This document shows positions 16,010 to 18,647 of a DNA stretch of 64,000 nt, one piece after another. Every line of letters begins with the position of its first letter. Within the stretch, counting starts at the first letter, position 1. Origin of the DNA: a virus. The stretch lies in the IMG/VR virus record IMGVR_UViG_3300031873_000003, positions 1-64,000 of that record. One strand, written 5' to 3'. A program made the position numbers and the translations under genes. The notes below the pieces were generated by a model. That model was given only the letters and a program-made list of their open reading frames with translations, searched no databases and was not told the DNA's origin.

Positions 16010-17002
16010 ATGGTAGGCGATAGCACAATTCAATATCTCAATTTTCATCTGAAAGAATACCGTGGAATCACACAGTTGATTCGGGCCACAAAACAGAGAT
16101 TACAATCTCTACCCGGCGAGGACAGACCGGAGGAGTTTGACGCCCTGCTCAAGGGCCGGCAGGCGGTCGGCGAGAGGGAGATTGGACTGGAGATGATCAA
16201 GGCCCGATGTGTCAGGGAGATCGAACACGAGTTGTCGGCCTGGGATATCTGGGGGCACTGGGCGAAGAAAATTCCGGGGATAGGTCCATGGATTGCTGGG
16301 GAGTTGATAATTTTGTTTAAATACCGCTTTATCGCTACTTGCAAAGCCTGTGGGGGGGACCTGGAAAAGAAGGAAAAGACGTTGGTTTGTGTGTTATGTG
16401 GAAAAAAGGCCAAGAAGGACGGGGCATTGATATACCGGATCGAGGAGAAAGACTTCCCCACTATCTCAAAATGGTGGGCATACATGGGTAGACATACGGT
16501 TGATGGCGTGATGCCGAAGTTGAGGGAGAGCGTCAAGTCGTCCTGGTCAACCAATGGTAGGACGGTGGGATGGCATATCGGGGAGGAATTTAATCGTCAA
16601 TCGGGAGACAATCCGTATAAGCTGCTGTTGCTGTTGCGGAAAGAGAAACATGCCAAGAACCATCCAGAATGGTCGATCGGCCATATCCACAGTGCGGCCA
16701 AAAATGAGGTTGCGAAGATCTTCCTTGCGCATTGGTGGACAGTAGCCAGGACGTTGGACGGAAAGTCAGTGTCGGAGCCCTACGCCGGTGCATTAATGGG
16801 CCACACAGGGATCATAAACCCATATTATTGGGAAGAGGAGAGCGAAACCTTAATTGAAACCCATCATCAATTTGCGAGCGAGAATTTGATTGAAACCCAT
16901 GATCAAGATGCGAGCGAGAAAGGATATGAAATCCAAACAAGGACTGCGAGCGATAACGCCGTAATCAGCGGGCGGCGTTTCGGCGCTCCGCTGGATGAGT
17001 AG
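16010..17002 (+). CDS. TIGR-associated Tas-like protein (Nop / IS110 C-terminal-like RNA-binding domain, no visible nuclease; TasA-like) with a zinc-ribbon insert
   Basis: IPGIGPWIAGELI, FPTISKWWAYMG, HIHSAAKNEVAKIFLAHWW resemble the IS110/Nop domain. No DEDD RuvC N-terminus. CKAC..CVLC insert. Runs directly into 36-nt repeat units. Confidence 0.82.
   Translation: MVGDSTIQYLNFHLKEYRGITQLIRATKQRLQSLPGEDRPEEFDALLKGRQAVGEREIGLEMIKARCVREIEHELSAWDIWGHWAKKIPGIGPWIAGELIILFKYRFIATCKACGGDLEKKEKTLVCVLCGKKAKKDGALIYRIEEKDFPTISKWWAYMGRHTVDGVMPKLRESVKSSWSTNGRTVGWHIGEEFNRQSGDNPYKLLLLLRKEKHAKNHPEWSIGHIHSAAKNEVAKIFLAHWWTVARTLDGKSVSEPYAGALMGHTGIINPYYWEEESETLIETHHQFASENLIETHDQDASEKGYEIQTRTASDNAVISGRRFGAPLDE
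16841..16953 (+). ncRNA. TIGR-like array segment 1 (three 36-nt units)
   Basis: AGCGA-N9-TGAAA(C/T)CCA-N9-TGCG x3; spacer pairs aaccttaat/tcatcaatt, gaatttgat/tgatcaaga, gaaaggata/aacaaggac. Confidence 0.88.
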
Positions 17003-17009
17003 GTTAGAA
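16951..17009 (+). mobile_element. integron attC-like site 1
   Basis: TAAC...CAGCGG/CCGCTG stem...GTTAGAA; 59 nt. Confidence 0.7.
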
Positions 17010-17020
17010 AGGAATATTCA

Positions 17021-17215
17021 ATGAGCGAACGACTAATATTGGTATTATACCCAATTTGGATCGGGATAATATTAAACATGATATTTGCAATAATTAATGT
17101 TTCGTTAATAGGCCATTATGGGAAAATAGCGAGTGGATACATGAAATACTTTCCCTGGTTCTTTGGTACAACGTGGATAATGTTAATTGGGTTAGCTGTT
17201 TTTAATTATTTCTAA
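17021..17215 (+). CDS. small two-TM membrane protein in an integron-type gene cassette
   Basis: AT-rich ORF bounded by GTTAGAA (17003) and the complementary TTCTAAC (17210). Confidence 0.7.
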   Translation: MSERLILVLYPIWIGIILNMIFAIINVSLIGHYGKIASGYMKYFPWFFGTTWIMLIGLAVFNYF

Positions 17216-17268
17216 CGCCCACCCTCACGGTCGCGCTCCTGCGCGTACCGTGCAGGGTGTTGTTGGCA
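17210..17268 (+). mobile_element. integron attC-like site 2
   Basis: TTCTAAC-GCCCACCCT-CACGGT-CGCGC...GCGCG-TACCGTG-CAGGGTG-TTGTTGGCA; 59 nt. Confidence 0.8.
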
Positions 17269-17332
17269 GTCTGGATTCCGAGACATGACGCCATACTTCC
17301 AGGATGACGCGGTGACGATCTACCACGGGGAC

Positions 17333-17785
17333 TTACGCAAGCCCGGAGCGGTTCAACGCTTTGACTTCCGCATAGATGGATTCGCGTTGCGCTACAACGG
17401 CGGGGTTAGTCTTTGTGCCGCGAACGCCAACACGCACAGCGCGACGTTGGGCAGTTGGCAACTCCTTAGACTCCCTGAGTTCACAAATCAGTTCGGCCTG
17501 CCTTCGCTTCAACCGCAGGTGAGGAAGCAGCGTCTTGGACGCCGACGCCGCGTTTCTGTTGCTGGCAACCCAGTAGAAAAACGGCTTCCACTTGGGATCT
17601 CGCTGCCGTTGGCGGACTGTTCCGCCAAAGGTGTCGCGCAGCATGTTCGGAACAACGTCGGACACCTGCCCGAGCCCGATGAACTCCGAATAGGTAGTAG
17701 ACCCGCGAATGGTATGCGACCGGATCGAAAAGAACCCGTCGGCATCCATCGCGCCAGCAAGGTAAGCGAGCGTTTCTTTATTCAT
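17333..17785 (-). CDS. LAGLIDADG homing endonuclease (single motif), antisense to the operon
   Basis: LAYLAGAMDADGFF; LLPHLRLKRRQAEL; own TTGACC-N17-TATGTT promoter at 17820-17792. Confidence 0.92.
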   Translation of the reverse strand: MNKETLAYLAGAMDADGFFSIRSHTIRGSTTYSEFIGLGQVSDVVPNMLRDTFGGTVRQRQRDPKWKPFFYWVASNRNAASASKTLLPHLRLKRRQAELICELRESKELPTAQRRAVRVGVRGTKTNPAVVAQRESIYAEVKALNRSGLA

Positions 17786-17812
17786 GCCAGCAACATACCA
17801 TAGGGGGTGTAG

Positions 17813-18607
17813 ATGGTCAAGCCTTATTATCAGGATGATGCCGTAACTATTTTTTGCGGCGACTGCCGTGAGATTGTGCCAACGCTACCGAAACACGACC
17901 TGCTTGTTTCTGACCCTCCGTATTTTGTCCCCGCTGTTGCCTATGTCGGGGCAAGGGGCGAGAAACTTCCGGCGCGAACACTTGGCGACCTGTCAATCAT
18001 GCAGGGCTATTTCGATGTGCTGTTGCCAATGATTGCGCCGTCTGCTGGAGGGTCCGCATATCTGTTTTGCGATGCAAAGTCTTATCCCGTGTTCTTTCGG
18101 GCGATGTTTCCGCACTTCCGCCATTTGCGGCTGTTGGTTTGGGACAAGGTTGTTTCCTACAACGGCTACACATGGAGACACCAGCACGAACTGATTGCAT
18201 GGGGAGAGGGCGACGGCGCAAAGCGGATTCCGACAGGGGACGGGGATGTTTTGCGGGAACGCGGCGTGGTTCAAGAGGGCCGCGTCCATCCTGCGGAAAA
18301 GCCCGTGTCTTTGCTTGGGCGGTTGATCGGGAAGCACGACGAGGCCGCGCTGATTCTTGACCCGTTTATGGGAAGCGGGACAACGCTTCGGGCCGCGAAG
18401 GATTTGGGGCGGAAGGCCATCGGCATTGAAATCGAGGAAAAGTATTGCGAGATTGCGGCCAGACGCATGGGGCAGGGCGTGCTGGATTTTGGTACTGCAA
18501 GCAAAGGAACTAAAAAATCTCGCATTAACAGCGGCAGACTGGGCAAAACGAAAAGGGATGGGGGAAGATGCAATTCAACATTGTCGATCCTACAACGTTG
18601 GAGTTAA
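17813..18607 (+). CDS. DNA N6-A/N4-C methyltransferase
   Basis: SDPPY, HPAEKP, LDPFMGSGTT, GIEIEEKYCEIA. Confidence 0.93.
   Translation: MVKPYYQDDAVTIFCGDCREIVPTLPKHDLLVSDPPYFVPAVAYVGARGEKLPARTLGDLSIMQGYFDVLLPMIAPSAGGSAYLFCDAKSYPVFFRAMFPHFRHLRLLVWDKVVSYNGYTWRHQHELIAWGEGDGAKRIPTGDGDVLRERGVVQEGRVHPAEKPVSLLGRLIGKHDEAALILDPFMGSGTTLRAAKDLGRKAIGIEIEEKYCEIAARRMGQGVLDFGTASKGTKKSRINSGRLGKTKRDGGRCNSTLSILQRWS
18499..18592 (+). repeat. 94-bp exact copy of 13321-13414
   Basis: AAGCAAAGGAACTAAAAAATCTCGC...TGTCGATCCTA identical at both positions. Confidence 0.9.
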
Positions 18608-18647
18608 GCGGTGAGCGAAGCGAATCCGATTGAACGACTTGTTATGC
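18590..18647 (+). mobile_element. integron attC-like site 3
   Basis: CTACAAC-GTTGGAGTTAAGCGGTGAGCGAAGCGAATCCGATTGAACGACTT-GTTATGC; 58 nt. Confidence 0.7.

What the first reader, a model, noticed from the sequence alone, without database searches (positions are those of the whole stretch)
16951..18647. Integron-type attC cassettes begin exactly where the first TIGR segment ends
Seen in sequence: directly after the last AGCGA edge repeat there are three 58-59-nt imperfect palindromes with AAC...GTT ends (16951, 17210, 18590). The AT-rich gene 17021-17215 is bounded by GTTAGAA and its exact complement TTCTAAC, the hallmark of an excisable cassette. No integron integrase is present in the window. 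Inference: a host IntI captured cassettes at a secondary site in the guide array, split it, and supplied the current stop codon of the tas gene. A cassette cluster in a phage guide array is an unusual meeting of two variable-array systems.
Basis: partly seen in the sequence, partly recalled or inferred. Interest (0 to 1): 0.78.

Follow-up and report, generated by a model that had tools for sequence, protein, structure and literature searches.

The report
Integron cassettes inside phage TIGR-Tas locus
Three genuine integron-type recombination sites, carrying a small membrane-protein gene and a DNA methyltransferase gene, sit between a phage's RNA-guide array and its conserved partner gene; phages with such integrase-less cassette clusters are already known, but this location and the back-to-front gene orientation are unusual.

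Summary
I built a covariance model from eight real class 1 integron attC sites. They score 14-23 bits, and the next hit scores 9.8 or less. A second model, built only from other phage attC sites, gives 21-32 bits.

All three sites lie on the minus strand, so tm64, the methyltransferase and the Mom remnant sit on the attC bottom strand. These are reversed cassettes.

The 93.8-kb phage record has no integron integrase, so this is a CALIN. The same record carries a second six-site cluster. A homologous methyltransferase lies in an 11-site array in another phage contig.

About 35 related loci have tas, array, a conserved 224-aa gene and a second array, with no cassettes. The split array is therefore ancestral. 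The true insert is about 16957-18805. Its left junction is a clean G|TT crossover three bases after an edge repeat. Its right end is truncated.

Phage CALINs were published in 2023. This scan has also noted reversed phage cassette arrays on other DNA.

The parts
16010..17002 (+). tas gene. The conserved core ends near 16840. The frame then reads through three TIGR units and stops at TAG 17000-17002 inside attC_1.
   Evidence: ORF list and translation. 60 related loci were found with the core. In close relatives the frame stops in a conserved irregular unit that this window lacks.
16838..16953 (+). TIGR array 1: three 36-nt units plus a fourth edge repeat (16945-16953).
   Evidence: Repeat families with 36-nt spacing. 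36-nt periodicity scan. Sequence read.
16951..17009 (-). attC_1, 59 nt. On the + strand T16987 and G16994 bulge, 6 nt apart, and G16994 lies 8 nt before GTT 17003. Its outer box (GTTATCG on the minus strand) is a hybrid with the TIGR edge repeat. The crossover point is A16956|C16957.
   Evidence: R1 14.2 bits. R2 21.2 bits, E 6e-3. Fold z -3.3. Bulge geometry read from the sequence against aadA1 attC.
17021..17215 (+). tm64: a 64-aa hydrophobic ORF, the only gene between attC_1 and attC_2. GC is 0.33.
   Evidence: No Pfam or PHROG family. One 89%-identical metagenomic homologue.
17210..17268 (-). attC_2, 59 nt, with a strong hairpin. On the + strand T17246 and C17253 bulge, 6 nt apart, and C17253 lies 8 nt before GTT 17262.
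   Evidence: R1 17.7 bits. R2 30.3 bits, E 2e-5. Fold -21 kcal/mol, z about -6. The same site occurs with other flanks in sediment metagenomes.
17285..17332 (+). 5' remnant of a second methyltransferase gene (MTPYFQDDAVTIYHGD).
   Evidence: Translation. 83-85% DNA identity to starts of phage MTase genes. Metagenome contigs read on past 17333 into an uninterrupted MTase.
17333..17785 (-). Homing-endonuclease-like gene, 150 aa, with a LAGLIDADG-type motif (LAGAMDADG). It is nested inside the methyltransferase cassette.
   Evidence: Translation. phrog_5046, E 7e-13, labelled endonuclease. No Pfam hit.
17813..18607 (+). N6/N4 DNA methyltransferase (MT2). Its last 33 codons (18493-18592) are a 98% copy of window 13315-13414.
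   Evidence: PF01555, E 4.9e-23. phrog_67, E 2.7e-45. Duplication shown. A 47% homologue lies in the attC array of another phage contig.
18590..18647 (-). attC_3, 58 nt. The boxes are conserved and G18632 bulges 8 nt before GTT 18641 on the + strand. The middle stem has decayed. Its outer box ends where the 98% duplicated patch begins (18592/18593).
   Evidence: R1 23.3 bits. R2 32.2 bits, E 6e-6. No significant fold. 76-77% identical to the attC after the homologous MTase in L019.
18611..18808 (+). Truncated Mom-like gene. Only about the first quarter of the family's length is present.
   Evidence: PF25680, E 3.5e-6, profile positions 4-49 of 202. phrog_1384, E 2.5e-11, positions 23-76 of 245.
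18822..19496 (+). orf224, the conserved companion gene of tas. It is not part of the insert and is the real reason the array is in two parts.
   Evidence: Homologues lie directly after array 1 in about 35 distinct loci. Alignment A6. All-helical model, pLDDT 85.
19440..20190 (+). TIGR array 2: degenerate units at 19440-19500, a short ORF, then about 12 regular 36-nt units at 19750-20190, ending at terS.
   Evidence: 20 of 27 relatives examined have an array right after the orf224 homologue.

Best explanation
Sites 16951-17009, 17210-17268 and 18590-18647 are integron-type attC recombination sites. They form an integrase-less cluster (a CALIN) of about 1.85 kb, lodged between TIGR array 1 and the conserved gene orf224 of a phage TIGR-Tas locus. 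The cluster carries one clean cassette interval (tm64), one methyltransferase interval later invaded by a homing-endonuclease gene, and a truncated Mom-like gene. How it works is inferred. In a host that expresses an integron integrase, the single-stranded + strand of each site folds into a bulged hairpin. IntI binds it and exchanges strands at AA|C of the first box (G|TT on the other strand). Units can then be cut out, swapped or inserted at weak secondary sites. The left border of the cluster looks like such an event, three bases after a TIGR edge repeat. The right border was later lost by deletion or other recombination. The genes lie on the recombining (bottom) strand, so each site precedes its gene. 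This is the reverse of class 1 cassettes. The cluster did not create the two-part array. At most it removed the distal units of array 1 and the usual tas stop codon. The likely benefit to the phage is exchangeable anti-restriction DNA modification genes.
For: Shown: (1) Model R1 was built from 8 class 1 attC sites with a hand-given structure. In an unfiltered scan of 128 kb of window strands it ranks the three sites 1-3, at 23.3, 17.7 and 14.2 bits, against 9.8 or less for everything else. Real attC sites held out of the model score 9-17 bits. The experimentally validated attC sites of phage TJE1 score 13.5-24 bits (Qi et al. 2023, PMC9892861). (2) Model R2 contains none of the three sites. 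It gives 32.2, 30.3 and 21.2 bits (E 6e-6 to 6e-3), and the next hit scores 10.2. (3) All three sites show a bulge 8 nt before GTT, and sites 1 and 2 show a second bulge 6 nt further in. The aadA1 attC has the same geometry. (4) The same record has six more sites of this family at L159 7377-9613, scoring 20-38 bits. (5) The MTase has a 47% homologue flanked by attC sites in an array of about 11 sites in another viral contig, and the downstream site there is 76-77% identical to attC_3. (6) Thirty-seven Tas-related loci (199 kb) have no attC between tas and orf224, and the gap there is pure array. (7) In sediment metagenomes, contigs break at the site borders. Three different sequences precede 17213/17214. 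One contig has attC_2 with foreign DNA on both sides. Another diverges after 18648. Depth over 17223-17369 is 2.5 times the flanks, and is 47 in a run where the phage flanks are 0. Established knowledge: IntI inserts cassettes at genomic GWT sites without strand bias (Loot et al., bioRxiv 10.1101/2022.09.11.507474).
Against: The curated IntegronFinder/HattCI models could not be run. Both of my models are home-made and their E-values are rough. The 7-nt boxes fit RYYYAAC/GTTRRRY only 4-6 of 7. attC_2 has C where the canonical bottom strand has a bulged G. attC_3 has lost its middle stem. The right border (about 18803) has a GTT but no TTRRRY. The junction of attC_3 with the duplicated patch lies 2-3 nt beyond the canonical crossover. 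Part of the layout was therefore made by other recombination. No contig skipping the insert was seen. No integrase, host or circular cassette is known. Genes on the bottom strand are not what promoterless class 1 cassettes show.
Confidence: 0.8

Rival explanations
1. The sites are true attC sites, but the block reached this place without any integron integrase. It came by ordinary phage mosaicism: illegitimate or short-homology recombination with another phage or with the phage's own second cassette cluster, helped by the homing endonucleases. The attC sites are passengers.
For: The right junction is non-canonical and the Mom gene is truncated. A 100-nt patch 98% identical to 13315-13414 abuts attC_3, which shows recent intragenomic recombination. 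An endonuclease gene with a duplicated MTase 5' end lies inside the block. The same phage holds a second cluster of the same site family that could serve as donor. Qi et al. also invoke such mechanisms for phage CALINs.
Against: The left junction falls exactly at the AA|C (G|TT) crossover of attC_1, with the outer half of the box supplied by the TIGR unit. General recombination would not be expected to hit that point. Metagenome contigs break at the site borders rather than at random.
Confidence: 0.3
2. The three palindromes are chance hairpins or transcription terminators between genes, not recombination sites.
For: Sites 1 and 2 lie in intergenic positions where terminators are expected. Site 3 does not fold significantly. 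attC sites are known to act as weak terminators (Qi et al.).
Against: They are the top three hits of two attC models over 128 kb. All are full-length and on one strand within 1.7 kb. They share conserved box sequences and bulge spacing with real attC sites. No T-run follows the hairpins. Site 3 lies in coding sequence.
Confidence: 0.03
3. One reading: one originally contiguous guide array was split in two by cassette capture, and everything from 16954 to 19420 is inserted.
For: Array units occur on both sides of the region. Spacers of the two arrays resemble each other (note e1-5966001, not tested here).
Against: ORF 18822-19496 has homologues in the same position in about 35 related loci that have no cassettes. 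There it is flanked by arrays on both sides in 20 of 27 loci examined. The literature describes arrays upstream of, downstream of and between tasA and a companion gene (PMC12045711).
Confidence: 0.03

Closest known systems
CALINs (clusters of attC sites lacking an integron integrase) in bacteriophage genomes, Qi, Rajabal, Ghaly, Tetu and Gillings 2023 (PMC9892861)
   Same: At least two attC sites lie within a few kb of each other. There is no IntI in the phage. The cassettes include N6_N4 DNA methyltransferases. The TJE1 sites, which recombine with IntI1 in that paper, score in the same range with my model.
   Different: In TJE1 the genes lie on the attC top strand. Here, and in two other arrays, they lie on the bottom strand. 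This cluster sits inside a TIGR-Tas locus, abuts a guide repeat and is partly decayed. The phage holds two clusters.
Class 1 integron cassettes (aadA1, catB3, aac(6')-Ib and others on plasmids such as R100)
   Same: The site plan is the same: 7-nt box, 5-nt spacer, bulged stem, 6-nt spacer, 7-nt box. Length is about 60 nt. Box sequences are very similar, with GTTCAA...CTTAAC in attC_3 as in aadA1.
   Different: There is no intI, attI or Pc. The genes are reversed relative to the site. Scores are 14-23 bits against 57-76 for the training sites.
IntI-catalysed cassette insertion at genomic secondary sites (attG, GWT), Loot et al. (bioRxiv 10.1101/2022.09.11.507474)
   Same: The left junction is G|TT, with the outer half-box supplied by the target.
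   Different: Only one clean junction survives. The event itself is inferred, not observed.
TIGR-TasA loci with a companion gene and several arrays, Faure et al. 2025 (PMC12045711)
   Same: 36-nt dual-spacer units. Arrays lie after tas and after a conserved companion gene.
   Different: No integron element is reported in such loci (the word is absent from both TIGR papers searched). Whether orf224 is the published tasParB is open. It has no ParB Pfam hit, and only a weak fold match to a ParB DNA-binding domain: Z 5.3, 93 residues, rmsd 3.1.

Membership tests
Integron attC site | Inverse core RYYYAAC at one end and core GTTRRRY at the other, complementary to each other | tested here: inconclusive
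   AAC and GTT are present in all three sites. Read on the minus strand, the full 7-mers fit 6/7 and 4/7 (attC_1), 5/7 and 6/7 (attC_2), and 6/7 and 5/7 (attC_3). The outer boxes of attC_1 and attC_3 are hybrids with neighbouring DNA.
Integron attC site | Imperfect palindrome of 57-141 nt with two extrahelical bases on one arm that mark the recombining strand | tested here: met
   Lengths are 59, 59 and 58 nt. On the + strand the bulges are T16987/G16994 and T17246/C17253, each pair 6 nt apart. The box-proximal bulges (G16994, C17253 and the single bulge G18632) each lie 8 nt before GTT, as in aadA1. attC_2 has C instead of G. attC_3 has lost the inner stem.
Integron attC site | Scores with a covariance model of attC sites (IntegronFinder accepts E up to 1) | tested here: met
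   Home-made R1 gives E 9e-4, 0.03 and 0.3. R2 gives 6e-6, 2e-5 and 6e-3. The sites are the top three of the window in both. Held-out and experimentally validated sites score alike. The curated IntegronFinder model itself was not available.
Integron attC site | Recombined by an integron integrase as a folded single strand | not testable with these tools
   This needs an attC x attI assay.
CALIN | Two or more attC sites within about 4 kb and no intI nearby | tested here: met
   Three sites lie within 1.7 kb. There is no TIGR02249 match in the whole 93.8-kb record.
Complete integron | intI gene with attI and Pc next to the array | tested here: not met
   No IntI was found. The only attI-like Rfam hit is chance level: RF02912, 18.4 bits, E 2.8.
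Canonical (class 1 type) cassette | Gene on the attC top strand, with the site after the gene | tested here: not met
   tm64, MT2 and the Mom remnant are on +, and the sites are on -. The same holds in the second cluster and in G001. The class 1 and TJE1 controls are canonical.
TIGR-Tas locus | Tandem 36-nt units with edge and loop repeats and two 9-nt spacers next to a Tas gene | tested here: met
   Units with GCGAGCGA and TGAAACCCA at 36-nt spacing. The Nop fold of the protein was not tested.

The most novel reading that the evidence does not exclude
Some phage lineages keep integron-type arrays built back to front, with each attC ahead of its gene and the genes on the recombining strand. 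This is seen in both clusters of this phage, in the 11-site array of a second phage contig and, according to this scan's notes, in several other phages. Such a bias would point to a phage-specific way of making or keeping cassettes. One possibility is that gene-less attC units are seeded between phage anti-restriction genes. Another is that arrays are held in the orientation that folds most readily. Repeat-rich non-coding arrays such as TIGR would then be tolerated landing sites.
Probability: 0.25. Interest if true: 0.7.

Novelty: new variant of a known kind. Interest (0 to 1): 0.5.

Why it matters
This finding places two unrelated variable-array systems in one phage locus: integron cassettes, and an RNA-guide array of the recently described TIGR-Tas family. 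It adds a well-supported case to the short list of phage CALINs. As in the published cases, the cargo includes a DNA methyltransferase that could protect the phage from host restriction.

The reversed gene orientation recurs in three arrays here and is absent from the class 1 and TJE1 controls. I could not find it described in the papers read. If it is general, it bears on how cassettes arise and how phages exchange them.

For TIGR biology the lesson is mainly cautionary. The two-part array is ancestral, and the cassette block is an add-on that shortened array 1.

Tried and rejected
- Rfam holds no attC family. The scan of 15500-21000 gave only two chance-level hits.
- The region has no DNA match in the phage collection.
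- With default filters R1 missed the held-out class 1 sites, so all decisive scans were run unfiltered.
- R1 is weak on long Vibrio-type sites, about 10 bits.
- tm64 has no relative in viral contigs.
- Laying metagenome contigs gave no joint that skips the insert and no empty-site form.
- No cassette other than the MTase is shared between the arrays of G000 and G001.
- orf224 has no Pfam or PHROG family and no sequence match to a solved structure. Foldseek gave nothing. VIA-align gave only middling helical matches, one of them a ParB DNA-binding domain.
- I considered site 2 as a bidirectional terminator between tm64 and the endonuclease gene. I dropped this because no T-run follows it on either strand.
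Full report
**What is at the coordinates.** The window is the first 64 kb of a 93.8-kb uncultured phage record. The locus reads, left to right:
- tas: 16010, with the conserved core ending near 16840.
- TIGR array 1: three 36-nt units plus a fourth edge repeat, ending at 16953.
- Site 1: 16951-17009.
- A 64-aa hydrophobic ORF at 17021-17215, with GC 0.33.
- Site 2: 17210-17268.
- A 48-nt remnant of a methyltransferase 5' end: 17285-17332.
- A 150-aa endonuclease-like gene on the minus strand, with a LAGLIDADG-type motif: 17333-17785.
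- An N6/N4 DNA methyltransferase: 17813-18607, PF01555, E 4.9e-23.
- Site 3: 18590-18647.
- The first quarter of a Mom-like gene, running to 18808 (PF25680, E 3.5e-6).
- A 224-aa ORF: 18822-19496.
- TIGR array 2: mainly 19750-20190.
- terS.

**Are the palindromes more than chance?** As single-stranded DNA, site 2 is a strong hairpin with two one-base bulges (-21 kcal/mol, z about -6). Site 1 is moderate (z -3.3). Site 3 does not fold significantly. Rfam has no attC family, so I built a test.
- I took real cassette arrays from plasmid R100 and eight other class 1 integron plasmids.
- I located 13 attC sites by their boxes.
- I aligned eight that align cleanly (A3) and built a covariance model, R1, with the textbook structure: outer box, spacer, inner box with a bulge, stem with a second bulge.

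All are full-length and all lie on the minus strand. They score 23.3, 17.7 and 14.2 bits (rough E 9e-4, 0.03, 0.3), and nothing else exceeds 9.8 bits.

For scale:
- Five real attC sites left out of the model score under 8.4 to 16.8 bits.
- The three attC sites of Tetrasphaera phage TJE1 score 13.5-24 bits. Two of these were shown experimentally to recombine with IntI1 (Qi et al. 2023, PMC9892861).

A second model, R2, was built from 14 sites of other phage arrays and none from this locus. It gives 32.2, 30.3 and 21.2 bits (E 6e-6, 2e-5, 6e-3), again with a gap to the next hit at 10.2 bits.

By eye, each site has a bulged base on the + strand exactly 8 nt before the closing GTT. Sites 1 and 2 have a second bulge 6 nt further in. 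This is the geometry of the aadA1 site.

**Context in this phage and in others.**
- No integron integrase (TIGR02249) is present anywhere in the record, so the cluster is a CALIN.
- The same record has six more sites of the same family at L159 7377-9613, which is record positions 90377-92613. They score 20-38 bits and separate small genes, including a DUF3850/ASCH protein and an N6 methylase-like protein.
- The methyltransferase has 355 relatives in viral contigs. One of them (47% identity, L019) lies in an array of about 11 attC sites, next to a C5 methylase cassette, at the end of a 59.7-kb viral contig.
- The site after that methylase is 76-77% identical to site 3.
- Site 1 shares its inner box and stem start (TCCAGCGGA) with three sites of the second cluster.

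**Did the cassettes split the array?** No. The Tas core finds 11 viral, 49 metagenomic and 2 genomic loci.
- In 40 rows (about 35 distinct loci), a homologue of ORF 18822-19496 follows tas after 87-860 nt. In this window that distance is 1981 nt.
- In the 27 loci examined, the gap is filled with 36-nt periodic array. In 20 of them a second array follows the companion gene. Several also have an array before tas.
- Alignment with the three closest loci shows identity up to GCGAGCGA at 16946-16953. It resumes only at the ribosome-binding site of the companion gene.
- R1 finds no attC between tas and the companion gene in 37 such loci (199 kb). It finds a single site elsewhere, in L005.
- Faure et al. 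describe arrays upstream of, downstream of and between tasA and a companion gene (PMC12045711).

So the two-part array is ancestral. The lineage-specific insert is about 16957-18805. This window's array 1 has three units, against five to fourteen in close relatives. It also lacks the conserved irregular unit that holds the tas stop codon in those relatives. The tas frame therefore runs on to TAG 17000-17002 inside site 1.

**Junctions and later damage.** At the left border, the outer box of site 1 is a hybrid: CGA of the edge repeat, then TAA, then C. The canonical crossover (AA|C on +, G|TT on -) therefore falls at 16956|16957, three bases into what would be the next spacer. This is what IntI-catalysed insertion at a secondary GWT site would leave (Loot et al.).

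The right border is not clean. The Mom-like gene is cut off, and the GTT at 18803-18801 is not followed by TTRRRY.

Inside the block, the last 100 nt of the methyltransferase ORF (18493-18592) are 98% identical to window 13315-13414. That stretch is part of a duplicated N-terminal domain lying next to an HNH endonuclease gene and the phage's other methyltransferase. The identity stops at 18592, where site 3 begins, which is 2-3 nt beyond the canonical crossover.

The endonuclease gene at 17333-17785 is preceded by a copy of a methyltransferase 5' end. Metagenome contigs that match up to 17333 continue as an uninterrupted methyltransferase. The block has therefore been reworked by homing and by intragenomic recombination after, or instead of, integrase action.

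**Evidence from the habitat.** Six sediment metagenomes hold parts of the region, and two are probably the source. When their contigs are laid on the region, no contig skips the insert. The contigs do break at the site borders:
- Three different sequences precede 17213/17214 in three runs.
- One contig has site 2 with foreign DNA on both sides.
- One contig diverges right after 18648.
- One run has site 3 alone, plus a 397-nt contig that covers site 3, the Mom remnant and the start of the companion gene (8 mismatches) but has other sequence to the left.

Depth over 17223-17369 is 2.5 times the flanks. It is 47 in a run where the phage flanks are at 0. These are assembled contigs, so they show that the modules exist in other contexts. 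They do not show rates of exchange.

**Orientation.** R1 was trained on the gene-sense (top) strand of class 1 cassettes, and it finds the TJE1 sites on the gene strand. In this locus the sites are on the minus strand, while tm64, the methyltransferase and the Mom remnant are on the plus strand. No plus-strand hit reaches E 10.

The same reversal holds in the second cluster, where sites are on + and genes on -. It also holds in the other contig's array, for two Pfam-supported methylases.

The genes therefore lie on the bulged, recombining strand, and each site precedes its gene. One observation fits that unit: contigs in a run that lacks the phage join the end of site 2 to the methylase 5' end. 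One observation does not fit: the site after the methylase is the one conserved between the two phages. I leave this unexplained.

This scan's notes report reversed phage arrays on other DNA (e1-5981734, e1-5971010). Those are unchecked notes, not evidence. I found no statement on this in the papers I read.

**Verdict.** The sites are genuine attC-type sites and the block is a partly decayed CALIN acquired by this lineage (confidence 0.8). IntI-type capture at the left junction is the best reading of how it arrived. Import by ordinary recombination remains a serious rival (0.3 for that step).

Phage CALINs with methyltransferase cassettes are published. What is new is the location in a TIGR-Tas locus, the presence of two clusters in one phage, the nested endonuclease gene and the reversed layout. 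This makes it a new variant of a known kind, of moderate interest.

Noticed in passing
L159:7377-9613 (record positions 90377-92613, outside the window): Second cluster of six attC sites of the same family in the same phage, scoring 20-38 bits. The sites are on the + strand and the small genes between them on the - strand, including a DUF3850/ASCH protein and an N6 methylase-like protein.
   Followed up: partly
L019:119-5160 (= L155:14558-19599, continuing at L157:82-138): Array of about 11 attC sites at the ends of a 59.7-kb viral contig. It carries an N6_N4 and a C5 DNA methylase cassette, with the genes again opposite to the sites. The contig's only tyrosine recombinase is not IntI-like (28.7 bits against a cut-off of 265).
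   Followed up: partly
window 13245-15448 and 18493-18592: ORF 13245-13640 is 72% identical to the N-terminal domain of methyltransferase 14342-15448. An HNH endonuclease gene (13839-14366) lies between them, which looks like a homing scar. A 100-nt stretch of ORF 13245-13640 (13315-13414) is copied at 98% identity onto the 3' end of the second methyltransferase.
   Followed up: partly
window 18822-19496: A conserved companion gene of tas, present in about 35 related loci. The model is all-helical with a long C-terminal helix (pLDDT 85). There is no family hit, and only a weak match to a ParB DNA-binding domain (Z 5.3). It may or may not be the published tasParB.
   Followed up: partly
L001:6900-6945, L005:6580-6626, L002:6840-6885: In the closest relatives the tas frame reads two or three units into the array and stops in a conserved irregular unit (peptide ending ...IEAR-x). 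This window lacks that unit.
   Followed up: no
L005:2874-2960: A single attC-type site (26 bits) about 2.7 kb upstream of tas in a 68%-identical relative.
   Followed up: no
window 16010-16840: The Tas core matches phrog_4285, labelled transposase (E 1.3e-20). This may reflect the published kinship of Tas with IS110-type proteins.
   Followed up: no
window 17822-17894 (-): Rfam RF02912 (aminoglycoside leader / attI site) hit at 18.4 bits, E 2.8, at the start of the methyltransferase. This is chance level, noted only because of the context.
   Followed up: no
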